DNA of 64,000 bases from Thermoproteota archaeon (GCA_037917675.1 JAVCBW010000005.1:93887-157886), one strand, 5' to 3'; shown: positions 6,501 through 20,498, counted from the stretch's first letter. Translations and numbers: made by a program. Notes: a model not told the origin generated them from the sequence alone.

Positions 6501-7654
6501 GGCTTTCTGGCTACAGCATCTGGTGTAGTGAATACAGCCTTTCCTTCTCTAGATATTGTGAGGACCTCTGGTAGATCTCCCATGTTATATAGCTCCTCTA
6601 TGGTGATCAAGCCTTCTCTCGTTAATACTAGTGTGTCTCCTGTTACACACTTTGCTGTCCCTGGGTCGCCTACTAGGAGTATGTTGACTTCTCCTCTTAT
6701 CCTTGTTCCATCAGGTAGCTCTATGGGTACTCCACCGAAGAGAGCGTATGCTATCCCCTTCTTGACTACTTCCCAGCCATATATTGATGGAGCTATTGAC
6801 TGCACTATCAGCTCCTCTAGCTTCGGAGACCTCGCAAGCTCAAGTATCTTCTCCTCTTCCTCTGGAGTTATCTCTATCTGTTCGAACTCCCTTGGAGGAG
6901 TCTTCACTGAGTTGACGTCTAGTATCATGTTGAAAATAACGTCTGCCTTACCTTTCCTCTTCTCTACTAGCCTAGGTACCCCTACTACTGTCACTCGGTC
7001 ACCAGGCTTCACTACATCGACCAAGTCATCTACGAGAATACAGTCTATTGAACGAGGCATTGTCCCGGGAGGGAGCTCCTCAGGCATCTCCTGAAGCTTT
7101 ATCCTCTGCCAGTCTAAGAGCTTGCTTTCCTCTTGAACCAGCTTGAGCCCTCTGCTTCCACAGCTCTCACAGATCGACGGCTTAGAGAGCCACCTGCTTG
7201 GCTGGGGTACCTCTACTTCTGCTCCACAGCTCTCACATCTGAACTTAGCTACATCAAGCTTGAAGGCTACCTCTGAGCATGATGTAACTATCCCCTTGAC
7301 TGAGATAAGCTTGTTCAAGTGCTTAGATGACACACCTCTCAAGGGTATTTCAGCCATCAGGTCCACTATTCTTGGATAGAACTTTGTAGCCTCAGCATAC
7401 TCTGGGTCTATTATAGAGACTCTCCTCCTTATGACCTCAGATGCCGCTAGAAGCACCCTATCAGGGTTATCTACAAGCTCTCTGGCTAGCTTCACGTTAA
7501 AGCTCCAGAGATCTCTGTAGCTTATCTCAAGTGATTTCCTTCTATCAACAGACAGCTGTCCTATCTGCTCATAGTACTTCCTTCTCCCTGACTCGTCTCT
7601 GAACTCTATGAAAAACTCCTCGAAAGCCTCTTCTATACTTCTCCTGTCCATCAA
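3533..7654 (-). CDS. mcm: MCM replicative helicase (1373 aa precursor) containing two inteins.
   Basis: An MCM N-terminal domain with a Zn finger (CESCG...CESCG) is present. Walker A is split as GDPGTAK|C...LHN|SQILKF. The arginine-finger region is split as HEAMEQQ|S...LHN|TISIAKAGI. An SRFDL motif follows. Confidence 0.85.
4391..5077 (-). mobile_element. MCM intein 2 (about 229 aa), inserted between EAMEQQ and TISIAKAG.
   Basis: It starts [21 protein letters not shown] (Ser nucleophile, block-A like) and ends GLVLHN with +1 Thr. The flanking exteins reconstitute the conserved [19 protein letters not shown] motif. Confidence 0.6.
5312..6649 (-). mobile_element. MCM intein 1 (about 446 aa), inserted immediately after the Walker A lysine. 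It probably carries a degenerate LAGLIDADG endonuclease domain.
   Basis: The N-terminal block is [13 protein letters not shown], the C-terminal end is FIVLHN, and the +1 residue is S. An internal [20 protein letters not shown] segment resembles LAGLIDADG motifs. Confidence 0.65.
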
Positions 7655-8196: not shown

Positions 8197-9801
8197 TTAG
8201 TCTAGTAGGATGTGCTCTATGAGAGCTTTCTCGACGTCTTCTAGCAGCGGTATCCCAGTTACCTTATAGGCTCTCTCAGTTAGGGATGCTAGATCCCCTC
8301 TGTCTATGAGATCTAGCTTCCACTTTCTGACACCTGCTATCAGCTGCTGCAAGCCTACCCTTATCCTGTCCCAGTAGGTGTAGAGGCCTATTGCTCCAAC
8401 CGGGATCTCTTTGACCCTCTCTCCGAACATCTGCTCTAAGTCATGGTATGTTATGAACATGGTTTCAGGCTTATCTCCATATAGCTCCTTGAACTTAGGT
8501 GGAAGCTTACCTTCTGAGGCTAGTTTGGTGAAGTACTTTGCCTTGAATACTGCTGTCAGAGGGGCTCTTGCTTGGGCTACTGCCTTTACGTAGGGCTTTC
8601 CTGTGAAGTTACTCATTGCTATGGCCTTGAACAGCTGAGTTTCGTTTACAAAACCTCCTGCCACCACTATATCAGGAAGATATCTGCCATGTCTCCTCAG
8701 CAGCTCGCAGCAGCTGAGAACTTGTGCCTCAAGATACACAGTTGGCGTCCCACACTCCATCATCATAGGGACTGGGCTCATCCCTGTCCCTCCTCCTGCG
8801 CCATCAAAGGTTACTGCATCTACCCTTGCCTCTGATGCAGCCTTCAGTGTGAATGCAACTACAGCAGGTCTGTATGACCCAGTTTTAAGGAAGACCTTCT
8901 TGGCACCCATCTCTCTTAGCTTCTCCACATCCTCTACAAAGGATTCTATGGTAGGCATGCCTACTCTACTATGCCTCTCGAATGTCCTGAACTCCCCTCT
9001 CTTGAATGCAGCCTGCACCTCCTTGTCCTCTGGATCAGGTATCACAATGTAGCCACGCTTCTTTAGCATTATAGCCCTCTCCAGCGAGCCTATCCTGACT
9101 TCACCTCCTATCGCCTTAGCTCCCTGCCCCCACTTCCTCTCTATGATGTCCACTTCTAGCTTAGATATCACATATTCATCTACACCTAGCCTCTGATCCT
9201 CTACATTTGTCTGGACTGCTATGTCACCATGCTTCCCATCCCAAAACTTCCTGTAAGACTCTATTCTGAACTTCATGTCCTCACTATGCGTCACCTTGCC
9301 ATTCGTTATCACGCTGTTAGGATCCATGCCGCAGACATTTTCTCCTACAACTTGTATTGTCCCTGATAGTGCTGCTCCAGCAGCCAGCCCATCCCAGTTC
9401 ACTTTAGCTACTGCTGTGGAGCCTAGTGCAGCTATCATTAGAGGGATCTTCATTGGCACTCCACCTACGCTTGTTGAAACGTCGACATTTGGGAATATTG
9501 CTTTGTCTGGGTCTGGCTCTACCCCCTTAGCTCCTCTGACCTCGACAAGGATCTGAAAGTGGCTCCAATCTAGGCCATAGTCTTTGTTTGATGCTGCTGT
9601 GCTATGCCCGAACTCCTCTGCGATAGGATATAAGACCTCTCTGCCTCTGAATGCTGATAGACCTATCTCACAGAGGACAGGGCAGTGGTCTATGCATATG
9701 GGACACATTCCACTCTGCGGGCTAGGGTCTCTAACTCGCAGAGATGTGCCTGTAGTTGATCTGGCATTAGGGTATGAAGGTAGGCTCATATACCTGCTCA
9801 C
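8197..9801 (-). CDS. Archaeal glutamate-synthase-related FMN protein (GltB domain-2 homologue).
   Basis: It is 534 aa with an N-terminal Cys cluster (CPICIDHCPVLC) and GltS FMN-domain-like segments (GGTGMSP, VVAGGF). Confidence 0.55.
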   Translation of the reverse strand: MSRYMSLPSYPNARSTTGTSLRVRDPSPQSGMCPICIDHCPVLCEIGLSAFRGREVLYPIAEEFGHSTAASNKDYGLDWSHFQILVEVRGAKGVEPDPDKAIFPNVDVSTSVGGVPMKIPLMIAALGSTAVAKVNWDGLAAGAALSGTIQVVGENVCGMDPNSVITNGKVTHSEDMKFRIESYRKFWDGKHGDIAVQTNVEDQRLGVDEYVISKLEVDIIERKWGQGAKAIGGEVRIGSLERAIMLKKRGYIVIPDPEDKEVQAAFKRGEFRTFERHSRVGMPTIESFVEDVEKLREMGAKKVFLKTGSYRPAVVAFTLKAASEARVDAVTFDGAGGGTGMSPVPMMMECGTPTVYLEAQVLSCCELLRRHGRYLPDIVVAGGFVNETQLFKAIAMSNFTGKPYVKAVAQARAPLTAVFKAKYFTKLASEGKLPPKFKELYGDKPETMFITYHDLEQMFGERVKEIPVGAIGLYTYWDRIRVGLQQLIAGVRKWKLDLIDRGDLASLTERAYKVTGIPLLEDVEKALIEHILLD

Positions 9802-9816
9802 CGGAGTATAGGTGTA

Positions 9817-9834
9817 GATAAAAAATTTTTAACC
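9817..9834. promoter_or_regulatory. AT-rich palindromic TATA-like element between divergent genes.
   Basis: The sequence gataaaaaatttttaacc lies about 20-30 nt upstream of the nob1 ATG at 9851 and upstream of the minus-strand GltB-like gene. Confidence 0.35.
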
Positions 9835-9850
9835 CTCAGTGGTGGCGTAG

Positions 9851-10363
9851 ATGCCAGAAGAGCTCACGTGTATACTGGATGCGTCAGCGTTCATTGGAGG
9901 CCTTAGCCCCTTTTCGATCAGATGCCATAGGATCCTGACGTGCAGCAGTGTTATAGAGGAGCTAGCTGACATCAAGAGCTCCTCCTACCTGGAGGCAGGG
10001 CTTGCATCCAAGAGAATCGAAGTCATAGACCCTGAGGAGAGGTATGTTAGAGAGGTTGCCGAGGAGGCGAAGAGGAAAAGCCTCTATAAGGCGCTCTCCA
10101 CAACAGATATAGAAGTTTTAGCACTCGCGCTACAGGAGAGAAGTAGAGGGAATGCTGTGATCGTATACACTGATGATCAAGTTATGCAGAGCATGTGCAT
10201 CTACATGAAGCTGAGGTGGAGGGGAGTAAGGAGGAAGGGCGTAAAGAGGCCTGTCAGCATAGAGGTCAGATGCAAGCTCTGTGGAAAGAGCTATGGCAAG
10301 CTGGACTTAGAGGAATGCCCGCTATGTGGCGGTGAGCTCGAGGTTGTAAGGAGATATGGATGA
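9851..10363 (+). CDS. nob1: Nob1-like endonuclease (PIN domain plus C-terminal zinc ribbon).
   Basis: An N-terminal PIN-like fold is present (ILDASAFI..., D residues). The C-terminus is CKLCGKS...CPLCGGELEV. Confidence 0.6.
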   Translation: MPEELTCILDASAFIGGLSPFSIRCHRILTCSSVIEELADIKSSSYLEAGLASKRIEVIDPEERYVREVAEEAKRKSLYKALSTTDIEVLALALQERSRGNAVIVYTDDQVMQSMCIYMKLRWRGVRRKGVKRPVSIEVRCKLCGKSYGKLDLEECPLCGGELEVVRRYG

Positions 10364-11508
10364 AGCTCTCTCTAAAGCTTGAGACCGACGTACTCGAGCT
10401 TGTTAGGCTAGTTTATGGAGCTAAGACGGATGCCGTCTTGAGGACGCTAGCTACCCCTACATCCAGGTACTTTGTCAGAGTAAACACCATTAAGACAAGC
10501 GTAGAGAGGCTGCTGAGAAGCCTCTGGAAAAGGGGGATCGAAGTACACGTGCACCCTGAGGTTGAAGAAGCCCTCTACTTCCCTGTAAAGGGACCATTCA
10601 CGCTGCAGCAGCTTGAAAGAGAAGTCAGGGCTGACAAGAAGGCTGCTGAGAGCGTTATACAGGGAGCAGACCTGTACTGCCCAGGGGTATTAAGAGCTAG
10701 TAGCGGCATCAAGAATGGAGATGAAGTCTCTATAGTAGAGGAGTATACTGGAGCTCATGTAGCCAATGGCATAGCAGTCATAGGCAGGAGAAGGATGCTT
10801 TCCTGTAGAAGAGGGAGAGCAGTTAGAGTTACACATCCACTGTTTAAGGCACCAAAGATCAGAGAGATGCCTGAGTACAGTGAGGGACTAATATACCCTC
10901 AAACTCTACCTTCAATGCTAGCAGTGCTAGCGCTGGAACCTTGGAGACACAGCCGGATACTAGATATGTGTGCAGCACCAGGTGGAAAGCTCACTTACAT
11001 CATGCAGCTAGCCCCACATGCTGAAGTCATAGGAGTAGATAGGAATAGGAAGAAGATCATGGAGATTAAGCAGACTATTGCAAGGCTGAAGATTCGGGAG
11101 GCAAAGCTACTAGTAGAGGACTCCAGATACCTTGACATCAGATACCCCTCACTCAGACCAGACGCCATACTCTTAGACCCCCCATGTTCAGCTTTAGGAG
11201 TGAGACCTAAGCTCTATGACAAGAAGACCAGGAGGGACGTAGAAGCCTTAGCGTGCCTCCAAAGACAGCTTCTGAAGGTTGCTGCAAAGATCCTCAAGCC
11301 TGGTGGGACTCTAGTTTATAGTGTTTGCACCGCGACAGCTAACGAGTGTGAGAAGAATGTAGAGTATGCAACTGCCCTGGGACTCGAGCCAACAGAACCC
11401 CATGAAGTGGTCAGAAAGCTTGGAGAAGCTTCAGATGGAGCTGTCAGATTCCACCCTCACATCCATGATACACCAGGCTTCTTCATAGCTGTCTTCACAA
11501 AGCAGTAG
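10360..11508 (+). CDS. RNA cytosine-C5 methyltransferase (NOL1/NOP2/Sun family) with an N-terminal PUA-like domain.
   Basis: The SAM motif DMCAAPGGKLTYI, DPPCSALG and the catalytic Cys region SVCT are present. There is a 4-nt ATGA overlap with nob1. Confidence 0.7.
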   Translation: MKLSLKLETDVLELVRLVYGAKTDAVLRTLATPTSRYFVRVNTIKTSVERLLRSLWKRGIEVHVHPEVEEALYFPVKGPFTLQQLEREVRADKKAAESVIQGADLYCPGVLRASSGIKNGDEVSIVEEYTGAHVANGIAVIGRRRMLSCRRGRAVRVTHPLFKAPKIREMPEYSEGLIYPQTLPSMLAVLALEPWRHSRILDMCAAPGGKLTYIMQLAPHAEVIGVDRNRKKIMEIKQTIARLKIREAKLLVEDSRYLDIRYPSLRPDAILLDPPCSALGVRPKLYDKKTRRDVEALACLQRQLLKVAAKILKPGGTLVYSVCTATANECEKNVEYATALGLEPTEPHEVVRKLGEASDGAVRFHPHIHDTPGFFIAVFTKQ

Positions 11509-11512
11509 AAAA

Positions 11513-11525
11513 CATTTAATATCCC
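11513..11525 (+). promoter_or_regulatory. tRNA promoter (TATA/BRE-like catttaatatccc).
   Basis: It lies about 23-35 nt upstream of the tRNA start. A near-identical motif (acatttttatccc) precedes the second tRNA-Leu at 15116-15128. Confidence 0.45.
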
Positions 11526-11547
11526 TGTAAGCAAAGTAATAGCTTAG

Positions 11548-11645
11548 CGGGGGTAGCCAAGCCTGGCCAACGGCGGCAGAAGCTGCTGAGACTCAAGATC
11601 TGCTCCCTTAGGGGTTCGTGGGTTCAAATCCCACCCCCCGCACCA
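11548..11645 (+). tRNA. tRNA-Leu (anticodon CAA). It has a type II variable arm and probably an 11-nt intron at a non-canonical position; CCA is encoded.
   Basis: The acceptor is GCGGGGG/CCCCCGC. The D-arm is GCC-AAGCCTGGCCAAC-GGC. The anticodon stem GCAGA/TCTGC encloses 18 nt ending CTCAAGA. The variable arm is TCCCTTAGGGG, the T-arm is GTGGGTTCAAATCCCAC, and the 3' end is ACCA. Confidence 0.7.
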
Positions 11646-11772
11646 TATCTAAAGGCCTGCTAAAGGCCTGCATGGAGATTGTATCCTCAAAATTGATCCA
11701 CCTGAAGGTGCGCACTTCTTAAGAATAAGAGTAGCATACGAACCATTGAACCGCTCTATTGAATAGAAGGAA

Positions 11773-12828
11773 TTGTTAAAAAATATAATTAGAATGGGAG
11801 TAGAAGTAAATGGAGTTATGACCGATGATGGCTTACATGTTAATGGAACAGATTTAACAAAAGCAATAAGCCAAAGATTTTGGATCAACTATTACATACT
11901 AAAACCTGAAGAAGATTCTGATGGAGATGGAATACCAAATAGCATTAAAATAGGTGAGAACCATTACAGAGCTTTAGATACTAATCCAAGAATACTAGAT
12001 CCAAAACCCATTAAAAATAGTATGAGTGTTGGAGTTTGGTATATTACAGGCTGGGGACTGAAAGGAAGATCAGTCGATTGGTCAATAGGCGCATCATTTC
12101 ATTCTCTTTTAGGAAATTATTCTTCTAATGATCCTGACGTAGCGGATTGGCATATAAAGTGGGCTGTTGAACATGGGATAAATGTCTTTATATCCCCTTA
12201 TACAAAGCCTTTATGGGGATGGGAGAATAATCTTGAAGATGGATTGCTAAGAGCTAGGTTCTTACCTTATATTAAGTGGGCAATCATGTTCAACAATGAA
12301 CCATTTTGGCCTGGAAATCCATTTGGATTTGATCCTTCTTACCTAGACAAGCTAACTAATGAAACAATAAGCTATATCGCAAAAAACTATTTTGACAGCC
12401 CTTCCTACTTTAAAATTGATAATAAACCTTTAATGATATACAACGCGGCAGTTTATCATGATGATATCATTGGCCATGAAAAATTTAGTAAGTTTATTGA
12501 TGAAATTCGAAATATCACAAATAGAACAGGAAATTCTGTTTATCTTGTAGGAGATGTTATGAGTACGTGGATAGGCTATGATGAAAATGCATTAAAACAT
12601 GCTAAAGAAGTTATAAGTTCTCTCGACGCAGTCTCCGCTTATGCAGTCCTAGATGCTGGCGAACATTGGGAATTTGATGAAAAAGGAAATGTACACCTAA
12701 TAAAACCCTACGATACTATGGTTGATGTTGTCACGATAAGTTTGACAAAACGGTCTAACGTATTTTTACCAAAGCTTATCTTCATAGCTCACCACTCAAC
12801 TCATGTCGGCCTTACAGGCCTTAGTTGA
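11773..12828 (+). CDS. AT-rich hypothetical protein with a DxDxDG calcium-binding motif and a glycoside-hydrolase-like central region. Its C-terminus is probably disrupted.
   Basis: It has roughly one-third GC by eye, against about half elsewhere. A DSDGDGIPN motif is present. W/F/Y-rich segments (WHIKWAVEHGINVF..., NNEPFWPGNPFGFD) resemble GH-like proteins. The composition switches near 12780, just before the IS fragment. Confidence 0.35.
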   Translation: MLKNIIRMGVEVNGVMTDDGLHVNGTDLTKAISQRFWINYYILKPEEDSDGDGIPNSIKIGENHYRALDTNPRILDPKPIKNSMSVGVWYITGWGLKGRSVDWSIGASFHSLLGNYSSNDPDVADWHIKWAVEHGINVFISPYTKPLWGWENNLEDGLLRARFLPYIKWAIMFNNEPFWPGNPFGFDPSYLDKLTNETISYIAKNYFDSPSYFKIDNKPLMIYNAAVYHDDIIGHEKFSKFIDEIRNITNRTGNSVYLVGDVMSTWIGYDENALKHAKEVISSLDAVSAYAVLDAGEHWEFDEKGNVHLIKPYDTMVDVVTISLTKRSNVFLPKLIFIAHHSTHVGLTGLS

Positions 12829-12830
12829 TA

Positions 12831-12983
12831 TGGTTAAGGAGGCGAAGGTGTTCAAGCGCAACAAGACTCCGTTGGAGAAGAAGGTGCTCGCCAGCATGCT
12901 ATGCTTTGCCGGCCTATCTTACAGGAAGGTAGCTAGCTTGGTCGATGGATGTCGAGGATGGCGGTGCAACGGGCATTCATAGC
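12831..12983 (+). pseudogene. Fragment of an IS transposase (N-terminal HTH region only).
   Basis: A 50-aa ORF (MVKEAKVFKRNKTPLEKKVLASMLCFAGLSYRKVASLVDG...) resembles the HTH N-terminus of archaeal IS transposases. It is followed by out-of-frame residual sequence with no catalytic domain. It abuts the truncated AT-rich ORF. Confidence 0.35.
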
Positions 12984-13234
12984 TATGAAGAGCTTACCTA
13001 AGCCTGAGGAGGGAAGGCTTCCCACTACATGAGTAAAAGTATGAATGTAGCGGGAAACCAGAACGGGAAATGTAGAGAGCATTTTGACGTCACGGTTTGA
13101 GATGTAGGATTGTCGAATTCTTCATGGATATCTGAGAGCAATAGCAGATTATGCTCAGATGGTCTTTAGCAAAGTTAATCTAGAGATCTGCTAGCAGAGT
13201 TTAGCGGAGTTTCCATCTGCACTTGGTGTAGGAT

Positions 13235-13993
13235 ATGAGGCTGTCGACGACACTTGCTATAATGGTACTGGGGGTGTTAGCTATCACAGCAGTCAGTTTC
13301 CTGATTCCTGGCAGAGAGGGGAAGGCGCCTTTTGAGCTTGAAGTCAGGTTTCAAGCTTCGGAGAAGTGTGTCTATGAGAGCACTAGCAGAGGTGGTGTGG
13401 CCAAAGTTGTTATGGAGTTGACTTCTCAGGTAGAGCTTAATGGAAGCATGTTCTATAGGATAGTTGGGAGTATACATGAGGAGGATGGAGAAAACAGTTA
13501 TGTTGTGAGAGAGGAGCTTCTAGCGTCATGCAATAGCCTTCTGCCTATCATAGTGAACCTCACATATGTAAACAATAGTGTTGTCGTCGCTAGGCTTAAC
13601 ATGACGTTCAGTCAGGAGAAGGGGAAGGTTCTGATATGCTTCTACAGAGCTGGGCTTGAGGATGCTAAGGTAGTGTGCATAGAGCCAGGTAGGAGGGTTT
13701 ATGACTCGCTCTCAGAGCTCTACTTCCTCAGGTCTATCAAGTGGAGAGAGGGTGTTATGGCTAGGTTCTATCTTTTGGCGTCAGACTTTAAGGTTGAGGA
13801 GGTGGAGGCTTCCTTTGCAGGATACGAGAGCCTGGTGGTCCCAGCTGGAAGCTTCAGCTGTGTTAAAGTCTTTGTTAGAACGCCTAGGGATGAGATATGG
13901 GTCTGGATAAGCTTAGATTCGCCTCACCAGATAGTTCAGATAGAGAGTAAGAGGGAGCAGTCTCTTCTCAAGCTTGTAGACTACAGCAGCTAG
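13235..13993 (+). CDS. Secreted or membrane-anchored hypothetical protein (N-terminal signal/TM).
   Basis: The N-terminus MRLSTTLAIMVLGVLAITAVSFLIP is hydrophobic. No recognisable domain was found. Confidence 0.4.
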   Translation: MRLSTTLAIMVLGVLAITAVSFLIPGREGKAPFELEVRFQASEKCVYESTSRGGVAKVVMELTSQVELNGSMFYRIVGSIHEEDGENSYVVREELLASCNSLLPIIVNLTYVNNSVVVARLNMTFSQEKGKVLICFYRAGLEDAKVVCIEPGRRVYDSLSELYFLRSIKWREGVMARFYLLASDFKVEEVEASFAGYESLVVPAGSFSCVKVFVRTPRDEIWVWISLDSPHQIVQIESKREQSLLKLVDYSS

Positions 13994-15003
13994 CTGGGCT
14001 CTTTAAGCAGGCTAGCTATGCTCTCAGATAGTACTATAACGTTAGTCTTCCCCTGAGGTCTCTTGATGACAAACCCTTTCTCCTCAAGAGCCTTTAAGAT
14101 CCTGCTGACTTTAGCCTTAGATAAGCCTGTTGCCTCTGGGAGCTCCTTTTGCAGCATAGATCCCCCAGCATCAAGCACCACTCTCAGAATAGCCTTCTCG
14201 TCTTCAGTAAGCAGATCCATGCGGGCTACCTTGGGGCCCTTACCTCTCCTCCTAATTCTCATGAGAAGTAAAGCTGCTATCATACCTCCTACTGTAGCTG
14301 CAGCTATGCCTGCTGCTAGGAGAGGGGCTTTAGTCCCCTCACCTGCTACGATAGAAGCTGATACAGAGACTCTCTGGCCTGGATCTAGATGGCTGAAGCC
14401 CCACTCTATGGTCATCTTACCGGACCAAATGTTTAACTCTGTTCTGTTTGGTGTCGGGAAGTATATGGGGAGAGCTTCGACTATCTGCTTCGCCATGTAT
14501 CCCTCTGGGAGGACGAACTTTATCAGAAGGCTGTTGACAGAGGCGTTTGGGCAGAAGAACTCATAGGACACATAGAGCTTCTCACCTTCGAGGACGCCGA
14601 CTCTGACATTGCGCCTGTAAGCATAAACGAACATCTTGAACTTGAACTCCTTGCTTGATCCAGGAGGAATACTGTCTTGGAAAGTTAACATCACGGAGTC
14701 ACGGAATCCAGAGACATTGCTTATGACTTTAACTGTATACCTCTGCTCACCTCCTATAGGCTCTGGAATAACCTCGCTTACCCTGTACTTCCTGAGAGCC
14801 TCAGGGGGTATGACTGGGAAAACCAGAGATCTTACTGGAACTTGCCCGCTATTCGACACGAGCCCTGAGACTACTATGGTAACTGGCGCGTCTGCTGGAG
14901 GAATAAGCAACTCCACCTCGAGCCTAGAGATAGTTGCCTCAGCCTGCTGAGGAAGGAGCGCTATAAAGGCTAGTAGAGCAAGCGACATTATCATCTTGAT
15001 CAA
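13990..15003 (-). CDS. Single-pass membrane protein with an extracellular domain and a cytoplasmic C-terminal winged-HTH (TrmB/MarR-like). This is a candidate transmembrane one-component regulator.
   Basis: It has a signal peptide (MIKMIMSLALLAFIALLPQQAEA), a roughly 230-aa ectodomain, a TM segment (LLAAGIAAATVGGMIAALLLM), an RIRRRGK stop-transfer, and then a wHTH (DEKAILRVVLDAGGSMLQKELPEATGLSKAKVSRILKALEEKGFV). Confidence 0.5.
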   Translation of the reverse strand: MIKMIMSLALLAFIALLPQQAEATISRLEVELLIPPADAPVTIVVSGLVSNSGQVPVRSLVFPVIPPEALRKYRVSEVIPEPIGGEQRYTVKVISNVSGFRDSVMLTFQDSIPPGSSKEFKFKMFVYAYRRNVRVGVLEGEKLYVSYEFFCPNASVNSLLIKFVLPEGYMAKQIVEALPIYFPTPNRTELNIWSGKMTIEWGFSHLDPGQRVSVSASIVAGEGTKAPLLAAGIAAATVGGMIAALLLMRIRRRGKGPKVARMDLLTEDEKAILRVVLDAGGSMLQKELPEATGLSKAKVSRILKALEEKGFVIKRPQGKTNVIVLSESIASLLKEPS

Positions 15004-15152
15004 AACATGACACCTTTAACATGATGGTATTGAGACTCCTAGCTGCTGGCATCTTTATACTTTTTCCTGAGCTGGCCTCAGTCTAAGGCATAGGTGAGAG
15101 GGAATACCTAAGATAACATTTTTATCCCAGAGCTTAGAGAGTATAGGTGAAT

Positions 15153-15271
15153 GCGGGGGTTGCCGAGCCTGGACAAAGGCGCAGGAGCCGTTATGGCGGT
15201 GTGACTTAAGATCTGGGTGGTGAGGCATCCTGTCCCTTAGGGGTTCGTGGGTTCAAATCCCACCCCCCGCA
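15153..15271 (+). tRNA. tRNA-Leu (anticodon UAA) with about 34 nt of intronic sequence that appears to flank the anticodon loop on both sides. CCA is not encoded.
   Basis: The acceptor is GCGGGGG/CCCCCGC. The anticodon stem CAGGA/TCCTG encloses 41 nt containing CTTAAGA. The variable arm TCCCTTAGGGG and the T-arm are identical to those of tRNA-Leu(CAA). Confidence 0.65.
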
Positions 15272-15278
15272 CAGGCAG

Positions 15279-15656
15279 GTGAGGACTTTGGAGAGTGAGC
15301 TGCTGCTAGCTAAGTTGAGGAAGCTGGCTCAAATGCAGAGGAGGATAGCTGTAGCAAGAGAGGAGGAGGAGAGGAGGAGAAGAAGAGAGGAGGAGAGAGC
15401 TAGACTCATATCCAGCATCACTACGCGGGATGGAGCTGAGAAACTTGAAGCTCTTAGAAGTAGTAGCCCGGAGCTTGCGAGGAAAATAGAGGATGTCATG
15501 CTGGAGATAGGTAGGATCTATGGGTTTAGGGTGGTATTTGACAGGTATGCTATTGAGGCTATCAGAAGGAAGCTTACTGGAGAGGAGACCAAGATAAGAA
15601 TTCAGAGAGAAGGGCGTACGATAGACTTCAGCGAGTACATTAGAGGAAAAACGTGA
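15279..15656 (+). CDS. PDCD5/TFAR19-like dsDNA-binding protein.
   Basis: It is 125 aa with a charged N-terminal helix, then a segment (KLEALRSSSPELARKIEDVMLEIGRIYGF) that aligns with the PDCD5 core ([29 protein letters not shown]). Confidence 0.45.
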   Translation: MRTLESELLLAKLRKLAQMQRRIAVAREEEERRRRREEERARLISSITTRDGAEKLEALRSSSPELARKIEDVMLEIGRIYGFRVVFDRYAIEAIRRKLTGEETKIRIQREGRTIDFSEYIRGKT

Positions 15657-15714
15657 AGACTGCTTCATAGGCTAAAGTTATAAATAGCTTCCTTCGGGTA
15701 CCTGCTGATCAGCC

Positions 15715-16521
15715 TTGCTAGCAGTTAGAGCCTTAGAGGGGCTTTTAGTTACATCTTTCTTAGGGCTGCTAAGCTATAAGAGGAGGCTAGTTGATGTAAG
15801 CGGTGTTATAGCAGGCATATTTGTTGGGACTAGTGTAATAGTATTCGGTAGCTGGAGGATGTTCATACTGTTAGCTACATTCCACTTTGTAGCAGGATTC
15901 TTCACACATTACAAGTATGAGGTTAAAGCAGCTAAGGGGGTTGCAGAGTTTAAGAGAGGAGCTAGATCCTGGCAGAATGTCCTAGCGAATGGGCTTATAC
16001 CAGCCTTAACTGCAGTGGCAGAATACTTCCATGGAGGAAGCATAGCAACCTTAGCCTTCGTTGGAGCTGTAGGAGCTTCACTATCAGATACACTCAGCAA
16101 TGAAGTTGGTGTCTTGAACCCCTCACCTCCGAGGCTAATAACCTCACTGAGGATTAAGGTTCCTCCAGGCTATCCTGGAGGAGTTTCTCCACTGGGGACA
16201 TTCACAGCGTTTGCTGCACCCTTGTCTCTAGGAGCTATGGCCTACTGGCTTAGAGTGATACCAGAGAGCAAGCTTGCAGCACTCTGTGTAGGTCTCGCTG
16301 GCGCCATCGGCTCTATGGTGGATAGCCTGATAGGCGCAACCCTACAGGGGGTTTATGTCTGTAGGGTATGTGGGAAGTTTACTGAGAGGAGGCACCACTG
16401 TGGGAGACCTGCTAGGCTTCATAGAGGCTATAAGGTGGTTAATAACCATGTTGTCAACTTACTGATGTCTACTGCTGGAGCAGCAGCTGCGGTGGCGATG
16501 TGGATGTTATTAAACTTCTAG
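15715..16521 (+). CDS. Polytopic membrane protein (DUF92/TMEM19-like) with a C-terminal Cys4 zinc ribbon.
   Basis: It has about seven hydrophobic segments. The motif RSWQNVLANG is present. The C-terminus is CRVCGKFTERRHHCGRP. Confidence 0.3.
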   Translation: MLAVRALEGLLVTSFLGLLSYKRRLVDVSGVIAGIFVGTSVIVFGSWRMFILLATFHFVAGFFTHYKYEVKAAKGVAEFKRGARSWQNVLANGLIPALTAVAEYFHGGSIATLAFVGAVGASLSDTLSNEVGVLNPSPPRLITSLRIKVPPGYPGGVSPLGTFTAFAAPLSLGAMAYWLRVIPESKLAALCVGLAGAIGSMVDSLIGATLQGVYVCRVCGKFTERRHHCGRPARLHRGYKVVNNHVVNLLMSTAGAAAAVAMWMLLNF

Positions 16522-16548
16522 GAACAGTTATAAATCATCGACGGAAGA

Positions 16549-16570
16549 TTTATATATAACCTTATATTAA
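16549..16570 (+). promoter_or_regulatory. TATA box (tttatatata, with a downstream cttatattaa) for tfb.
   Basis: It lies 27-36 nt upstream of the tfb ATG at 16585. Confidence 0.5.
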
Positions 16571-16584
16571 TTTTTTTGGTGAGT

Positions 16585-17538
16585 ATGCGAGAGCTCATAG
16601 GTGAGATACCTAAGAAGTGCCCATACTGTGGTAGTGATAGGATAGTAATAGATGCAGGTAGTGGAGAAGCTGTCTGTATGGGATGTGGTAGAGTAATAGA
16701 GGAGAACCTCATAGATAGTGGGAAGGAGTGGAGAGAGTTCGATGACGAAGTGAGTGCTGAAAGGGCTAGAGTAGGGCCTTCAACCTCACCTATCAAGGTA
16801 GGCTTTGGTCTAACGACAGAGTTCGACCTGTATAGCAAGGGGGTAAAGCTTCCCCAGGAGATTAGGAAGAAGGCAAGCAAGATAGCTCTCCTCCAATGGA
16901 GGGCGACAAGGGATACTATGCCAAAGAGGTCTGTTAGCGCAGCACTACCACAGCTAAAGAGGGCAGCCTCAGGTCTAGGGCTCTCAGATCACGTGATAGA
17001 GGAGGCAGCCATGATATATAGAAAGGCTTCAGCAGCAGACCTGATTAAGGGCAGAAGCGTGATAGCTACAATGGCAGCAGCAGTGTACATAGCTGTAAGA
17101 CTAAACTATGTCGCGAGAACTCTTGAGGAGGTAGCTAGAGAATTTGGAATCTCAGAGAAAGATCTCGGAAGGAATTTCAGGCTTCTGATCAGAGAGCTAA
17201 ACCTGAAGCTACCACCTCCATCACCAGAGGCCTTCGTAGAGAGGATCTGTGGAGAGCTAAAGCTTCCAGGTGAAGTGGCTGCTAGAGCCCATCAGGTGCT
17301 GAAGAAGGCGAGAGAAGCTGGTATAACAATGGGCAAGGAGCCCTGTGGGATAGCTGCAGCAGCAGTGTACATGGCTTGCCAGGAGACCAATGAGAAGAGA
17401 ACCCAGAGAGAGCTAGCTCAGGCAGCTGGAGTAACAGAGGTAACTGTGAGAAATAGGTTCAAGGAGCTTGTAAACAAGCTTTACCCCGGCAAGGTGATAG
17501 TGGAGGAGGTGGCAGAAAGGAGGAGGGGGAAGGAGTAG
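16585..17538 (+). CDS. tfb: Transcription initiation factor IIB (TFB).
   Basis: An N-terminal Zn ribbon (CPYCGS...CMGCG), a B-finger/linker and two cyclin repeats are present. The C-terminal RTQRELAQAAGVTEVTVRNRFKEL is the HTH of the second cyclin repeat. The ATG at 16585 is preferred over the track's TTG at 16576. Confidence 0.9.
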   Translation: MRELIGEIPKKCPYCGSDRIVIDAGSGEAVCMGCGRVIEENLIDSGKEWREFDDEVSAERARVGPSTSPIKVGFGLTTEFDLYSKGVKLPQEIRKKASKIALLQWRATRDTMPKRSVSAALPQLKRAASGLGLSDHVIEEAAMIYRKASAADLIKGRSVIATMAAAVYIAVRLNYVARTLEEVAREFGISEKDLGRNFRLLIRELNLKLPPPSPEAFVERICGELKLPGEVAARAHQVLKKAREAGITMGKEPCGIAAAAVYMACQETNEKRTQRELAQAAGVTEVTVRNRFKELVNKLYPGKVIVEEVAERRRGKE

Positions 17539-17853
17539 CTATTCCTCGACCTCAATCCTCTCAGGTGGGAAGCCACGTTTCTCAAGGAGCTCCCTGACCT
17601 TCTTCGTGTGCTTGCCCTGCAGTATTATCATATTCTCCTTGACAGTACCTCCACAAGCACACTTAGACTTCAAGTACTTGGCTACCTCATATATGTCGTC
17701 ATCTGGAACCCCCTCTATTATGGTTACATCCTTTCCCCACTTTCTTTTCTCTGCCCTTATCTTGATTATCTGGAGCTCTAGCTCACGGGTCTTACACGTG
17801 CAGAGCGCTATCGGCAGCCCGCAGATCTCACATCTCTCCATGATATCCCACAA
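17539..17853 (-). CDS. Translation initiation factor aIF1 (SUI1).
   Basis: Features are CEICGLPIALCTC, IKIRAEKRKWGKDVTII, ACGGTVKENMIILQGKHT and LLEKRGF. Confidence 0.85.
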   Translation of the reverse strand: MWDIMERCEICGLPIALCTCKTRELELQIIKIRAEKRKWGKDVTIIEGVPDDDIYEVAKYLKSKCACGGTVKENMIILQGKHTKKVRELLEKRGFPPERIEVEE

Positions 17854-17989
17854 CAGCCTCAGTCTCTAAAGCATACTACACTAGGGTTTAAAACTTTATC
17901 GTAGCTTAGGCTGTAGTCTCCTAGGCTAAGAGGAGACTTTCTTAAGGCAAGTTTAAAGAGCACGCTAAAGGTAGTTGGGGGGTGTAGCC

Positions 17990-18142
17990 ATGAGCTATAT
18001 ATGTGCTAAGTGCAAGAGGATAATGACGATTGAGCAGCTCCAGACAAGCTTTATGAGCCCGAGAGCGAGATGCGTCTACTGTCAGTCTAAAGTCCTATTT
18101 AAGGCGAGACCACCTATCGTGAGGAGGGTTAAGGCTATATGA
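17990..18142 (+). CDS. rpoP: DNA-directed RNA polymerase subunit P (RpoP/Rpb12). It is absent from the ORF track because it is under 60 aa.
   Basis: The 50-aa sequence is MSYICAKCKRIMTIEQLQTSFMSPRARCVYCQSKVLFKARPPIVRRVKAI. It carries a C-x2-C...C-x2-C Zn ribbon and a C-terminal RxPxVxxVKAI as in archaeal RpoP. Its stop overlaps the next gene's ATG (ATGA). Confidence 0.7.
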   Translation: MSYICAKCKRIMTIEQLQTSFMSPRARCVYCQSKVLFKARPPIVRRVKAI

Positions 18143-18678
18143 GCCTGCAGAAGCATATAGCTAAGAACATAGCCTCAGTGATCCTGCTTGCTATCAGCAT
18201 ATACATTGCTACCAACATCCTCGTAGTATATGCTCTCGGGACTAAAACTCCATTCACAGTGGTCACAAGCGGTTCTATGAGGCCTACTTTGATGGAGGGC
18301 GACCTGCTCATAGTACGGGGAGTCAGCAACCCAAACAGCCTTAAGGAGGGAGACATAATAGTTTTCAGATACAAGTTCAGTGACAAGCCTGTTGTACATA
18401 GGATAGTCAAGATCATACGTACGCAAGATGGAAGCGTATACTACCAGACGAAGGGTGATGCTAACCCTGCTCCTGATGCAGGGTATAGGACGATAGAGGA
18501 CATACTTGGAGTCGTAGCATTCAGGATCCCAAAGCTGGGTTATGTGTTCTGGTTCTTTCATACAACAGAGGGAAGAACTCTAGCACTTCTACTCATAGCA
18601 GGTATAGTGGTGTGGAGTATAGTCAGAGAGAAGAGGGAAAGAGAGGAGGAGCTGCTAGAGGAGACAGAAGAAGGGTAA
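18139..18678 (+). CDS. Signal peptidase I (archaeal Sec11/S26 type).
   Basis: There is an N-terminal TM segment, the catalytic box TSGSMRPTL and a C-terminal TM segment. Confidence 0.8.
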   Translation: MSLQKHIAKNIASVILLAISIYIATNILVVYALGTKTPFTVVTSGSMRPTLMEGDLLIVRGVSNPNSLKEGDIIVFRYKFSDKPVVHRIVKIIRTQDGSVYYQTKGDANPAPDAGYRTIEDILGVVAFRIPKLGYVFWFFHTTEGRTLALLLIAGIVVWSIVREKREREEELLEETEEG

Positions 18679-18796
18679 AGCAAGGTTCTCCTCTGAGCTC
18701 ATTGAATAAAAATTTTCACTTTTATGGAGAAGAGTGTTGCATAAAATGCCACTATGTATTTATAGAATGTCAATACAATAAGCTAGTGTGAGGTAG

Positions 18797-19405
18797 TTGA
18801 GCAGCGTGAGGGGGAGAGAGCAAATCAAGATAGAGGACTTACCAGAGCCTTTAATAAACATAGAAAATGTAGTTGCCTCTGTTGTGATAAATCAGAGGCT
18901 TGATCTACATAAAATAGAGCAGCTGATACCTGGGGCTACGTTCAATCCAGATAAGTTTCCGGGTCTCATCCTGAAGCTTAAGGAGCCTAAAACAGCCCTT
19001 CTGATCTTTAGTAGCGGTAAGTTCGTTTGCACCGGGGCTAAGTCGGCAGCTACGGTAGCTAGAGCTGTCAATAAGGTTATAGAGATGCTTAACTCTAAGG
19101 GAATAAGAGTTACAGGAAAGCCTTTGATCAAAGTTGAGAACATAGTAGCTTCAGCTAAGCTCTATGTCACGGTAGATCTTGAGAGAGCATCTGTAGAGCT
19201 TGAGGGGACAGTATATGAGCCGGAGCAGTTCCCTGGAATGATACTGAGAATGGAAAACCCTAGCGTCGTCTTTCTGGTGTTCTCCTCTGGAAGCCTAGTG
19301 TGTACAGGAGCCAAAAAGGAGGAAGACGTTTATAAGGCTGTTTATAAGCTTAGAAGGATCCTAGCTGAAAAGGGGCTGATAATAAGCGTGGCTCCTCGAG
19401 AGTGA
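18797..19405 (+). CDS. tbp: TATA-box binding protein.
   Basis: Two direct repeats are present: NIENVVASV...FPGLILKL...LLIFSSGKFVCTGAKS and ENIVASAKL...FPGMILRM...FLVFSSGSLVCTGAKK. The start is non-ATG (TTG/GTG), and a TATA-like tatttataga lies upstream. Confidence 0.9.
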   Translation: MSSVRGREQIKIEDLPEPLINIENVVASVVINQRLDLHKIEQLIPGATFNPDKFPGLILKLKEPKTALLIFSSGKFVCTGAKSAATVARAVNKVIEMLNSKGIRVTGKPLIKVENIVASAKLYVTVDLERASVELEGTVYEPEQFPGMILRMENPSVVFLVFSSGSLVCTGAKKEEDVYKAVYKLRRILAEKGLIISVAPRE

Positions 19406-19409
19406 TAGC

Positions 19410-20498
19410 ATGAGTAGAATAACGGTTTCTGTGATAAAAGCTGATATAGGGAGCCTAGCAGGCCACCATGTTGTTCCAGAGGAGATAAAGGAAGCTGCCA
19501 GGTCGATGCTAAGGGAGGCAGCTGATGAAGGGAAGATAATAGACTACTATGTGACAAACTGTGGAGACGACCTTGAGCTCATAATGACACATAGAAGAGG
19601 AGAAGAGTCACCTGAGATACATGAGCTGGCATTCAAGACGTTTAAGAAGTGTGAGAAGAGGGCTAAGGAGCTCAAGCTCTATGCTGCTGGGCAGGACATA
19701 CTGTCAGATGCATTCTCAGGAAACCTGAGGGGGATGGGGCCTGGCTTCGCTGAACTGGAGTTTGAGGAAAGGCCATCAGATCCTGTCGTTGTGTTCATGG
19801 CAGACAAGACAGAGCCTGGCGCATTCAACCTCCCTCTCTTCAAGGCGTTTGCAGACCCCTTCAACACAGCGGGGCTTGTTATAGACCCTAAGATGCATAG
19901 CGGTTTTGAATTCGAGATTCTAGACGTCGTAGAAGGTAAATCTGTCAGACTGAAGTGTCCTGAGGAAATGTATGACTTACTTGCCTTAATAGGGACTACA
20001 GGAAGATACATAATCAGGAAAGTATACTCTAAGAATGGGGTGCCTGCTGCAGCAGTCAGCACAACAAGGCTTAGCCTCATAGCCGGCAGATATGTTGGAA
20101 AAGATGATCCTGTTGCAGTAGTTAGGGCGCAGGCAGGGCTCCCTGCAGTCGGGGAAGTGCTGGAGGCATTCGCATTCCCACATCTAGTTGCAGGATGGAT
20201 GAGAGGATCTCACTATGGCCCTCTGATGCCAGTTTCAGAGCAGGATGCTAGGTGTACGAGATTTGATGGGCCACCGAGGGTAGTTGCCTTAGGCTTCCAG
20301 GTGTCGGATGGAAAACTGCTTGGACCTGCAGATCTATTTAGGGATCCAGCATTTGATAGAGCTAGGGAGCTATGCAATCAGATAGCAGACTACATGAGGA
20401 GACACGGTCCCTTCATGCCCCATAGGCTTGGTCCAGATGAAATGGAGTATACAACACTGCCTAATGTCCTAGAGAAGCTAAGAGACAGATTCAGGTAG
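19410..20498 (+). CDS. fbp: Fructose-1,6-bisphosphate aldolase/phosphatase (class V FBPase).
   Basis: The N-terminus ITVSVIKADIGSLAGHHVVPEE is diagnostic. The length is 362 aa. Confidence 0.85.
   Translation: MSRITVSVIKADIGSLAGHHVVPEEIKEAARSMLREAADEGKIIDYYVTNCGDDLELIMTHRRGEESPEIHELAFKTFKKCEKRAKELKLYAAGQDILSDAFSGNLRGMGPGFAELEFEERPSDPVVVFMADKTEPGAFNLPLFKAFADPFNTAGLVIDPKMHSGFEFEILDVVEGKSVRLKCPEEMYDLLALIGTTGRYIIRKVYSKNGVPAAAVSTTRLSLIAGRYVGKDDPVAVVRAQAGLPAVGEVLEAFAFPHLVAGWMRGSHYGPLMPVSEQDARCTRFDGPPRVVALGFQVSDGKLLGPADLFRDPAFDRARELCNQIADYMRRHGPFMPHRLGPDEMEYTTLPNVLEKLRDRFR

What the first reader, a model, noticed from the sequence alone, without database searches (positions are those of the whole stretch)
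11646..15152. Compositionally anomalous islet between the two tRNA-Leu genes (AT-rich GH-like ORF, IS fragment, secreted protein, membrane-anchored wHTH)
The segment immediately downstream of tRNA-Leu(CAA) (about 11650-12780) is conspicuously AT-rich relative to the rest of the window. It begins with a tandem 11-mer (TAAAGGCCTGC x2 at 11651-11672). It encodes an ORF with a DxDxDG Ca-binding motif and a GH-like aromatic-rich body, whose C-terminus switches composition and abuts a transposase N-terminal fragment. The rest of the inter-tRNA interval encodes only a secreted hypothetical protein and a transmembrane wHTH protein. tRNA-adjacent, compositionally deviant DNA with IS debris is the signature of horizontally acquired material. 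No integrase is visible, so this may be an eroded islet.
Basis: partly seen in the sequence, partly recalled or inferred. Interest (0 to 1): 0.55.

Follow-up and report, generated by a model that had tools for sequence, protein, structure and literature searches.

The report
Decayed mobile-element remnant beside tRNA-Leu
A 1.6-kb scrap of foreign, AT-rich DNA sits directly after a tRNA-Leu gene in an archaeal genome: a broken sugar-hydrolase-like gene cut off by a broken insertion sequence.

Summary
A related species (two independent assemblies) is collinear with the window on both sides. There the tRNA-Leu(CAA) 3' end lies 15 nt from the start codon of the DUF3108-like gene, so it shows an empty site. 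The DUF3108-like and membrane-anchored wHTH genes are conserved in the same order there and have normal composition, so they are native.

The insert has five parts:
- an 11-nt tandem duplication;
- an internal fragment of a GH99/WbsX-like gene with 35% GC against 48.8% background. It lacks the N-terminal ~100-170 and C-terminal ~115 codons, including the catalytic-motif region, and has one in-frame stop;
- an IS6-family insertion-sequence remnant, whose left inverted repeat marks exactly where the hydrolase homology ends;
- about 150 nt that I could not assign;
- a degenerate 40-nt copy of the tRNA 3' half at the far edge.

The best reading is a tRNA-targeted integrated element that deletions reduced to debris. 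No integrase survives and nothing here looks functional. This is a new instance of a well-known kind and of low interest.

The parts
11547..11645 (+). tRNA-Leu(CAA) with an 11-nt intron just 5' of the anticodon loop. Its 3' end is the left boundary of the insert. CCA is genomically encoded here but not in the relative.
   Evidence: Rfam RF00005 38.3 bits. ARAGORN with the intron option calls Leu(caa) i(35,11), and the spliced form is called Leu(caa). Identical in the relative except for the intron.
11644..13222 (.). Lineage-specific insert of 1,579 bp. GCAC is present at both edges (11640-11643 and 13219-13222), so the boundary is ambiguous by 4 nt.
   Evidence: L010 and L015 align with window 9446-11643 and 13225-20000 at 76-80% nt identity and have nothing in between. 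In them the tRNA 3' end is 15 nt from the ATG of the DUF3108-like gene.
11650..11671 (+). Exact tandem duplication TAAAGGCCTGC x2 at the left junction. The second copy runs into the first recognisable codons of the hydrolase-like fragment.
   Evidence: Read directly from the sequence. It is the only such duplication in the window. Translation shown.
11674..12723 (+). AT-rich internal fragment (pseudogene) of a GH99/WbsX-like gene. It has an in-frame TAG at 11764-11766 where homologues have Trp. It lacks the N-terminal ~100-170 codons and the C-terminal ~115 codons that carry the GFDN and AWNExxEGxxIEPT motifs.
   Evidence: Homologues are 400-600 aa, and the intact ones are 512-598 aa. Homology continues upstream across the stop. 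78% nt identity to L007, a contig of 31% GC. PDB profile hits to GH99 structures at E = 1e-9, with the motif region lying in the part missing here. GC 0.352, z = -9.6.
12724..13029 (+). IS6-family insertion-sequence remnant. It comprises the left terminal inverted repeat GATGTTGTCACGATAAG (12724-12740) and the transposase N-terminal HTH (12803-12949, continuing after a frameshift to 13029). The DDE domain and the right inverted repeat are missing.
   Evidence: The same 17-mer forms perfect inverted repeats 718 bp apart, with an 8-bp target duplication TAAAATTG, in L006. The window holds only one copy of the 17-mer. P0026 is 65% identical over 93% of the fragment. Full-length relatives P0070, P0079 and P0140 (213-225 aa) hit PF13610 DDE_Tnp_IS240 above its cut-off. 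tblastn finds no DDE remnant.
13030..13182 (.). Unassigned spacer inside the insert (GC 0.41 over 13030-13220), with stops in all six frames.
   Evidence: No similarity to any fetched locus, to phage or plasmid records, or to IS6 proteins.
13183..13222 (+). Degenerate copy of the 3' 49 nt of tRNA-Leu(CAA), running from the anticodon loop to the discriminator. It abuts the native spacer and is attR-like.
   Evidence: 30 of 40 nt match in an end-to-end alignment that includes an exact AGATCTGCT. In the right-anchored test, 7 of 9632 control anchors score as high. With GCAC excluded the figure is 97 of 9632. Unanchored scans find equal scores elsewhere by chance. The copy is absent from the relative.
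13235..13993 (+). Native DUF3108-like membrane-anchored or secreted protein. Not part of the islet.
   Evidence: PF11306 34.6 bits. Same position and orientation in L010 and L015. Host-like composition.
13990..15003 (-). Native protein with a signal sequence, a transmembrane segment and a C-terminal wHTH (DUF7343/MarR_2). Not part of the islet.
   Evidence: Pfam. Orthologue P0030 is 71-72% identical over the full length and sits in conserved synteny with the dsDNA-binding protein, DUF92 and TFB genes.
15153..15272 (+). Second tRNA-Leu. A two-intron model gives anticodon UAA with a perfect anticodon stem. ARAGORN's one-intron model gives GAG. It is native and conserved in the relative.
   Evidence: The 40-nt 3' part is identical to that of tRNA-Leu(CAA).

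Best explanation
Window 11644-13222 is the non-functional remnant of a mobile element that entered this archaeal lineage at the 3' end of tRNA-Leu(CAA).

Shown:
- The 1,579 bp are absent from the orthologous site of a related species.
- They consist of an AT-rich internal fragment of a GH99/WbsX-like gene from a low-GC donor.
- That gene had been interrupted by an IS6-family insertion sequence, because its homology stops exactly at the IS inverted repeat.
- The IS is now truncated to its first ~300 bp.
- The DUF3108-like and wHTH genes are native.

Inferred:
- The element arrived by integrase-mediated recombination with the 3' half of the tRNA gene. This rebuilt an intact tRNA on the left and left a duplicate 3' half on the right, which is now degenerate (13183-13222).
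- Later deletions removed the integrase, the 5' third of the hydrolase-like gene, the rest of the IS and everything else.
- Those deletions stopped at the tRNA and at the start of the downstream gene because selection protects both.
- The 11-nt tandem duplication at the left junction is probably a repair scar of one such deletion.

Nothing in the insert is expected to work today. My confidence is about 0.9 for the descriptive part and about 0.55 for integrase-mediated entry.
For: - Empty site: two independent assemblies of one related species (L010 from NCBI GCA_003661385.1, L015 from a JGI metagenome, 99.7% identical to each other) show an empty site with collinear flanks.
- Composition: GC z = -9.6 and tetranucleotide z = 7.5, confined to 11673-12723.
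- Hydrolase-like fragment: truncated at both ends relative to 512-598-aa homologues, with one in-frame stop. The closest DNA (78% identity) is on a contig of 31% GC.
- IS6 remnant: left inverted repeat, HTH and frameshift are present. An 8-bp target duplication is seen on a complete degenerate copy elsewhere. Full-length relatives carry PF13610.
- attR-like copy: it ends exactly at the independently defined right junction and is followed by the native trailer (GCAC-TTGGTGTAGGAT-ATG against GCAC-TCGGGTGCAGAAG-ATG in the relative).
- Independent precedent: the homologue P0004 in L008 also sits in an AT-rich island that begins at a tRNA-Gly(GCC) gene and contains a clear partial copy of that tRNA's 3' part.
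Against: - No integrase or integrase fragment is detectable in the insert.
- The att-like repeat is weak. Only 9 + 4 nt are exact, conservative p is about 0.01, a strict local alignment is not significant, and an unanchored scan finds equal or better scores at several unrelated places.
- The decay levels do not match. The duplicate tRNA half has 10 mismatches and 9 deleted nt in 49. The 1-kb pseudogene has only one stop and no frameshift, and its dN/dS against the nearest homologue is 0.14. The cargo may therefore be younger than the att scar, which would mean two events, or the scar may be an imperfect attP arm.
- Only one related species was available for the empty-site comparison.
- No second assembly spans the junctions. 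The Logan contigs stop at 11576 and 13229.
Confidence: 0.6

Rival explanations
1. IS6-mediated delivery. The hydrolase-like fragment was carried in as DNA adjacent to an IS6-family element, either by cointegrate formation and resolution or as a translocatable unit. On this view the position next to the tRNA is incidental.
For: An IS6-family end directly abuts the foreign gene fragment. IS6 elements move by cointegrates and can carry adjacent DNA (PMC7986276). The donor-like contig L007 also carries an IS6 remnant.
Against: There is only one IS copy, it is truncated, and no IS copy sits at the left edge. The insert is not flanked by an 8-bp duplication, only by GCAC. The window holds no other copy of the inverted repeat or of the transposase. 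The insert starts exactly at the tRNA discriminator base and ends with a tRNA-like stretch.
Confidence: 0.15
2. Illegitimate (microhomology-mediated) insertion. A random piece of foreign DNA that was already an IS-disrupted gene fragment was taken up and inserted with no mobile-element machinery.
For: A 4-nt microhomology (GCAC) lies at both edges. An 11-nt tandem duplication sits at the left junction. There is no integrase. The pseudogene is only lightly decayed.
Against: The placement exactly at a tRNA 3' end, plus the tRNA-like 40 nt at the far edge (p about 0.001-0.01), would both have to be coincidences. The homologue in L008 is also tRNA-linked.
Confidence: 0.15
3. One reading: the whole interval between the two tRNA-Leu genes (11646-15152), including the secreted protein and the wHTH protein, is one acquired islet.
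For: The two tRNA genes share an identical 40-nt 3' part in direct orientation, which could be mistaken for att repeats.
Against: The relative has both genes and both tRNAs in the same order with only the 1.58 kb missing. Composition over 13250-15250 is host-like. The shared 40 nt is simply the common T-arm and acceptor stem of two Leu isoacceptors and is equally present in the relative.
Confidence: 0.03
4. Assembly artefact. The AT-rich segment is a chimeric join in a metagenome-derived contig.
For: The source appears only once in the protein collection. Two Logan assemblies break at 11576 and at 13229 and do not span the insert.
Against: The contig returns to exactly the adjacent native nucleotide after 1,579 bp, which chimeras do not do. 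The internal junctions make biological sense, since the gene homology ends exactly at an IS inverted repeat. The Logan breaks at 11576 and 15243 lie inside the tRNA genes, where sequence repeated between tRNA-Leu genes (such as the 40-nt 3' repeat at 15233-15272) can end a short-k-mer contig. The break at 13229 is not explained.
Confidence: 0.05

Closest known systems
tRNA-linked integrated elements and their degraded remnants in archaea (SSV-type and pNOB8-type tyrosine-integrase elements; reviewed in PMC8371274)
   Same: The insert starts at the 3' end of a tRNA gene that stays intact. It is absent from a relative and has deviant composition. A partial tRNA 3'-half-like sequence lies at the distal edge. 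It carries cargo plus IS debris.
   Different: No integrase or split integrase remains. The distal repeat is degenerate rather than exact. Only 1.6 kb is left, so the family of the original element cannot be named.
IS6 family insertion sequences (IS26, IS257 and archaeal members; PMC7986276, PMC6807381)
   Same: The N-terminal HTH is homologous to 213-225-aa transposases that carry the IS6-type DDE domain PF13610. The terminal inverted repeat is 17 bp and contains a TGTT core. A complete degenerate copy in L006 is 718 bp long with an 8-bp target duplication.
   Different: The window copy is a stump of ~300 bp, with no DDE domain, no right end and one frameshift. The repeat tip is GATG rather than the usual GG. 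Most copies of this archaeal subgroup found in the databases are themselves fragments.
GH99 endo-alpha-mannosidase/mannanase and the WbsX-like family (PF16317, PF14307; PDB 4ad1, 4acy, 5ngw)
   Same: Full-length homologues hit PF14307 above its cut-off. A family profile hits GH99 structures at E = 1e-9, and the family motif AWNEyqEGsvIEPT aligns to SFNEWHEGSQIEPA of GH99.
   Different: The family adds an N-terminal membrane anchor, a beta-rich domain and a DxDxDG calcium-type loop. The window copy is only the middle ~350 codons, lacks the motif region and scores below the Pfam cut-off. No enzymatic activity of this archaeal subgroup is known to me.

Membership tests
tRNA-targeted integrated mobile element / genomic islet | Insert begins at the 3' end of a tRNA gene, which remains intact | tested here: met
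   Identity with the relative runs through ...CCCCCCGCAC (11643) and then diverges. The tRNA is called by Rfam and by ARAGORN -i.
tRNA-targeted integrated mobile element / genomic islet | Empty site in a related genome | tested here: met
   In L010 and L015 the tRNA 3' end is 15 nt from the ATG of the DUF3108-like gene, and the flanks are collinear at 76-80% nt identity. Only one related species was available.
tRNA-targeted integrated mobile element / genomic islet | Direct repeat of the tRNA 3' part at the distal end (attL/attR) | tested here: inconclusive
   A degenerate copy matches at 30 of 40 nt. The anchored p is about 0.0007, or about 0.01 with GCAC excluded. It is not significant in unanchored or strict local tests.
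tRNA-targeted integrated mobile element / genomic islet | Integrase gene, whole or split | tested here: not met
   No Pfam, NCBIfam or PHROG integrase hit on any ORF of 11644-13222. The six-frame translation of 13020-13225 is full of stops.
tRNA-targeted integrated mobile element / genomic islet | Composition different from the host | tested here: met
   GC 0.352 against 0.488 +/- 0.014 (z = -9.6) and tetranucleotide z = 7.5, for 11673-12723 only.
IS6 family insertion sequence | DDE transposase of the IS6/IS240 type (PF13610) | tested here: not met
   The window keeps only the first ~75 codons. Full-length relatives found with the N-terminal profile hit PF13610 at 32-51 bits against a cut-off of 27.
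IS6 family insertion sequence | N-terminal HTH homologous to family members | tested here: met
   65% identity to P0026. tblastn against P0035, P0037 and P0038 gives E = 1e-17 to 1e-21 on the region and 1e-15 to 1e-17 on the whole window. Against the full-length P0070, P0079 and P0140 it gives 1e-8 to 1e-11 on the region.
IS6 family insertion sequence | Short (15-20 bp) terminal inverted repeats at both ends | tested here: not met
   The left repeat is present at 12724-12740. No inverted copy exists anywhere in the window, even allowing 3 mismatches. Both ends are present in L006.
IS6 family insertion sequence | 8-bp target-site duplication | not testable with these tools
   The right end is deleted in the window. 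The L006 copy has TAAAATTG on both sides.
GH99 / WbsX-like glycoside-hydrolase-like proteins (PF16317, PF14307) | Domain match above the curated threshold | tested here: not met
   The window ORF scores 26.8 bits on PF16317, below the 33-bit cut-off, and has no PF14307 hit. Homologues P0002 and P0004 score 60.9 and 39.9 bits on PF14307 against a cut-off of 25.1.
GH99 / WbsX-like glycoside-hydrolase-like proteins (PF16317, PF14307) | C-terminal NEW(H)EG-type motif region. From my own knowledge of the Bacteroides GH99 structures, this region carries the catalytic glutamates. | tested here: not met
   In the alignment the window sequence ends about 115 columns before AWNExxEGxxIEPT. That motif aligns to SFNEWHEGSQIEPA of 4ad1.

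The most novel reading that the evidence does not exclude
The AT-rich GH99/WbsX-like gene may be a recurrent cargo of an undescribed family of low-GC, tRNA-targeting archaeal integrative elements. It is seen here at tRNA-Leu(CAA) and independently at tRNA-Gly(GCC) in L008. In this lineage the decayed duplicate tRNA half at 13183-13222 may also have been retained because it now supplies the TATA-like promoter element for the downstream DUF3108-like gene. In the relative that gene starts 15 nt after the tRNA and may use the tRNA T-loop (TTCAAAT) as its TATA box.
Probability: 0.12. Interest if true: 0.35.

Novelty: new member of a known kind. Interest (0 to 1): 0.15.

Why it matters
It matters mainly for annotation. 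The 336/351-aa 'protein' deposited for this locus is a pseudogene fragment fused to IS read-through, and it should not be counted as a glycoside hydrolase. The two neighbouring genes should not be labelled as island cargo. More broadly, this is one more documented case of a tRNA gene acting as an entry point for foreign DNA in a poorly sampled Thermoproteota lineage. It also shows that an AT-rich GH99-like gene moves between archaeal genomes of very different GC content. None of this is surprising to a specialist.

Tried and rejected
- Default ARAGORN found no tRNA in the window. The intron option or manual splicing was needed.
- The genome-contig scan with the neighbouring methyltransferase returned only 37-44% identical relatives that are not syntenic and have no tRNA downstream. 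It was useless for the empty-site test.
- Exact look-ups of P0001 and of the 59-aa IS ORF found no contig.
- NCBIfam and Pfam gave nothing convincing on the IS fragment (HTH_23, E = 0.13). Pfam also missed the DDE domain in a stitched translation of the degenerate L006 copy. The family assignment came only from the profile search and full-length hits.
- blastn of the insert against the phage and plasmid collections found no match.
- The GH99-like family was not found on viral contigs and matched no PHROG.
- Exact junction strings were not found on viral contigs.
- The 13030-13182 stretch matched nothing.
- A strict local alignment of the tRNA to the right end found only a 9-mer, which is not significant: 324 of 1008 controls scored as high. 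An unanchored fitting scan found equal scores elsewhere. I therefore rate the att-like repeat as moderate evidence only.
- L016 shares 'TATGGTT' upstream of the inverted repeat. I suspected the same gene-IS junction, but its upstream DNA is unrelated, so the match is chance.
- The Logan contig end at 13229 was considered as evidence of an empty-site variant in the population. It lies 6-8 nt away from the junction, so it cannot be read that way.


Full report
**Setting.** The window is archaeal. It encodes TFB (16576-17538), a Nob1-type PIN protein, an RsmB/NSUN-type methyltransferase (10360-11508) and an MCM with inteins. Mean GC is 0.486. Default ARAGORN finds no tRNA because the tRNA genes carry introns. 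Rfam calls a tRNA at 11547-11642 (38.3 bits). For the second gene, a two-intron model gives anticodon UAA with a perfect anticodon stem, and ARAGORN's one-intron model gives GAG. The two genes share an identical 40-nt 3' part. The exact proteins of this locus occur once in the 15-billion-protein collection, with no relatives above 90% identity.

**Checking the observation.**
- GC falls to 0.30-0.39 between about 11700 and 12750.
- For 11673-12723 GC is 0.352, against 0.488 +/- 0.014 for equal-length windows elsewhere (z = -9.6). The tetranucleotide deviation there is the highest in the window (z = 7.5).
- From about 12750 onward, including both protein genes up to the second tRNA, the deviation is at or below average.
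- The tandem TAAAGGCCTGC x2 is at 11650-11671. It is the only exact tandem duplication of period 9-15 in 64 kb.
- The 351-aa ORF, the DSDGDG loop, the short transposase-like ORF, the anchored DUF3108-like protein and the signal/TM/wHTH protein are all present as described.

**The AT-rich ORF is a gene fragment.** Its homologues are 400-600 aa and carry PF14307 (WbsX-like) and PF16317 (GH99). In the alignment the window sequence starts about 100-170 residues into the family and stops about 115 residues before its end. It therefore lacks the GFDN and AWNExxEGxxIEPT blocks. A profile of the family hits solved GH99 endo-alpha-mannosidases (4ad1, 4acy) at E = 1e-9. The missing block aligns to SFNEWHEGSQIEPA of GH99. 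From my own knowledge of the Bacteroides GH99 structures, that block holds the catalytic glutamates. Upstream of the annotated start the same frame still reads ...GDCILKIDPPEGAHFLRIRVAYEPLNRSIE*KELLKN..., which matches the homologues across a TAG that replaces a Trp. Recognisable gene sequence therefore begins at about 11674, immediately after the 11-mer duplication. The nearest DNA relative (78% identity) lies on a contig of 31% GC (L007). A second homologue (L008) is itself a 38%-GC gene in a 54%-GC genome. Pairwise dN/dS against L007 is 0.14, and the fragment has one stop and no frameshift. Most of its divergence therefore predates inactivation.

**What truncates it.** Homology ends at 12723. 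From 12724 the sequence GATGTTGTCACGATAAG follows. In the unrelated contig L006 this 17-mer occurs twice as perfect inverted repeats 718 bp apart, flanked by an 8-bp duplication TAAAATTG. The window has only this one copy, even allowing three mismatches. Downstream, 12803-12949 plus a frameshifted continuation to 13029 encode about 75 residues that are 65% identical to P0026. A profile of this N-terminus retrieved 122 proteins, mostly fragments. These include 213-225-aa proteins whose C-terminal parts hit PF13610, the IS6-type DDE domain, above its cut-off. The features agree with the published description of the IS6 family: 15-20-bp inverted repeats with a TGTT core and 8-bp target repeats (PMC7986276). 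No DDE remnant or second IS copy exists in the window. The last 35 codons of the '351-aa ORF' are read-through into this IS.

**Extent of the foreign DNA.** The wHTH protein has a 71-72% identical orthologue, P0030, in a Thermoproteota MAG (GCA_003661385.1; L010). An independent JGI contig of the same species (L015, 99.7% identical to L010) extends further. These loci align with window 9446-11643 and 13225-20000 at 76-80% nt identity. The gene order is the same: methyltransferase, tRNA-Leu(CAA), DUF3108-like, wHTH, tRNA-Leu, dsDNA-binding protein, DUF92, TFB. In them the tRNA ends ...CCCCCCGCAC and the DUF3108-like ATG follows after TCGGGTGCAGAAG. The window therefore carries 1,579 extra bases (11644-13222), with GCAC at both edges. 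The two protein genes and the second tRNA are native. This refutes the wider islet and confirms a narrower one.

**Mode of entry.** The last 40 nt of the insert (13183-13222) align end to end with the 3' 49 nt of tRNA-Leu(CAA). Thirty positions match, including an exact AGATCTGCT that covers the anticodon-loop end and the 3' strand of the anticodon stem. The native trailer follows.
- With the right end anchored at the junction, which was defined independently by the empty site, 7 of 9632 control anchors score as high.
- With the GCAC that helps define the junction removed, the figure is 97 of 9632.
- A strict local alignment and an unanchored scan are not significant.

The support is therefore moderate and depends on the location. 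The arrangement is the one expected from tyrosine-integrase recombination with the 3' part of a tRNA gene, which rebuilds an intact tRNA. According to the review of archaeal tyrosine recombinases, this is the preferred target in archaea, with att sites that may start at the anticodon loop (PMC8371274). A precedent supports it. The L008 homologue lies in an AT-rich island that begins directly after tRNA-Gly(GCC) and contains a clear partial copy of that tRNA's 3' part. Against this reading, no integrase remains. The tRNA-like scar is also much more decayed than the pseudogene. That suggests either two successive events at this site or an imperfect element-borne arm. IS6-mediated delivery and simple microhomology-mediated insertion cannot be excluded. 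I give them about 0.15 each.

**Function.** Nothing in the insert is expected to be active. The hydrolase-like fragment has no signal or anchor, no catalytic-motif region and a stop codon. The IS has no catalytic domain and only one end. I rate the descriptive conclusion at about 0.9 and integrase-mediated origin at about 0.55.

**Limits.** Only one related species was available. The genome-contig scan gave only distant, non-syntenic relatives. Two Logan assemblies of other runs match the window at 99.95-99.99% identity but end at 11576 and 13229/15243. The junctions therefore rest on a single assembly. A chimera is unlikely because the contig resumes at exactly the adjacent native base and because the internal junctions make biological sense.

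**Verdict.** This is a real but ordinary feature: a small, eroded remnant of horizontally acquired DNA at a tRNA gene. It is a new instance of a well-known kind.

Noticed in passing
L008 4875-9990 (JGI Ga0315280_10000129; same region in L009): The GH99-like homologue P0004 (38% GC) lies in an AT-rich island of a 54%-GC archaeal contig. The island starts right after tRNA-Gly(GCC). It contains a clear partial copy of that tRNA's 3' part (6467-6530) and a 15-nt repeat at 6513 and 9973, where GC returns to 0.64-0.69. Two more tRNA-Gly(GCC) copies follow at 12482 and 13304, which suggests that elements have accumulated at this tRNA.
   Followed up: partly
L011 1717-1747, L012 584-613, L013 6846-6875 (IMG/VR contigs): Three related head-tailed-virus-like contigs (portal, protease/scaffold and capsid genes) carry the exact 31-nt 3' end of these tRNA-Leu genes without the rest of the tRNA. 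This looks like an attP-type site. No integrase was seen in the stored parts. A fourth hit (L014) is a complete tRNA.
   Followed up: partly
window 13183-13237; L010 11760-11830 (minus strand): In the relative the DUF3108-like gene starts 15 nt after the tRNA, so the tRNA T-loop TTCAAAT lies about 27 nt upstream of the ATG. That is the distance expected for an archaeal TATA box on a leaderless mRNA. In the window the degenerate tRNA-like remnant has TTTA (13201-13204) at the same distance. This may be a promoter kept by selection, but that is speculation.
   Followed up: no
window 15153-15272: The second tRNA-Leu is missed by Rfam at the gathering threshold and by default ARAGORN. A model with two introns flanking the anticodon loop gives UAA with a perfect stem, and CTTAAGA is invariant in the relative while the putative introns vary. 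ARAGORN's single-intron model gives GAG.
   Followed up: partly
window 11644-11646: tRNA-Leu(CAA) has a genomically encoded CCA in the window (GCA-CCA-TATC) but not in the relative (GCA-CTC). The trailer is therefore insert-derived.
   Followed up: no
window about 3533-7654 (minus strand): A 1,373-aa MCM helicase gene is interrupted by two intein domains, according to the Pfam annotation of the identical Logan contig L004.
   Followed up: no
window 11576, 13229, 15243: Independent Logan assemblies from two sequencing runs match the window at 99.95-99.99% identity but break at these positions. None of them spans the insert. The break at 13229 is 6-8 nt inside native sequence and remains unexplained.
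   Followed up: partly
L006 7936-8653; L016; L007 5777-6001: Most database members of this archaeal IS6 subgroup are fragments or frameshifted copies: 122 hits, of which few exceed 200 aa. This suggests a largely extinct or heavily decayed IS lineage.
   Followed up: no
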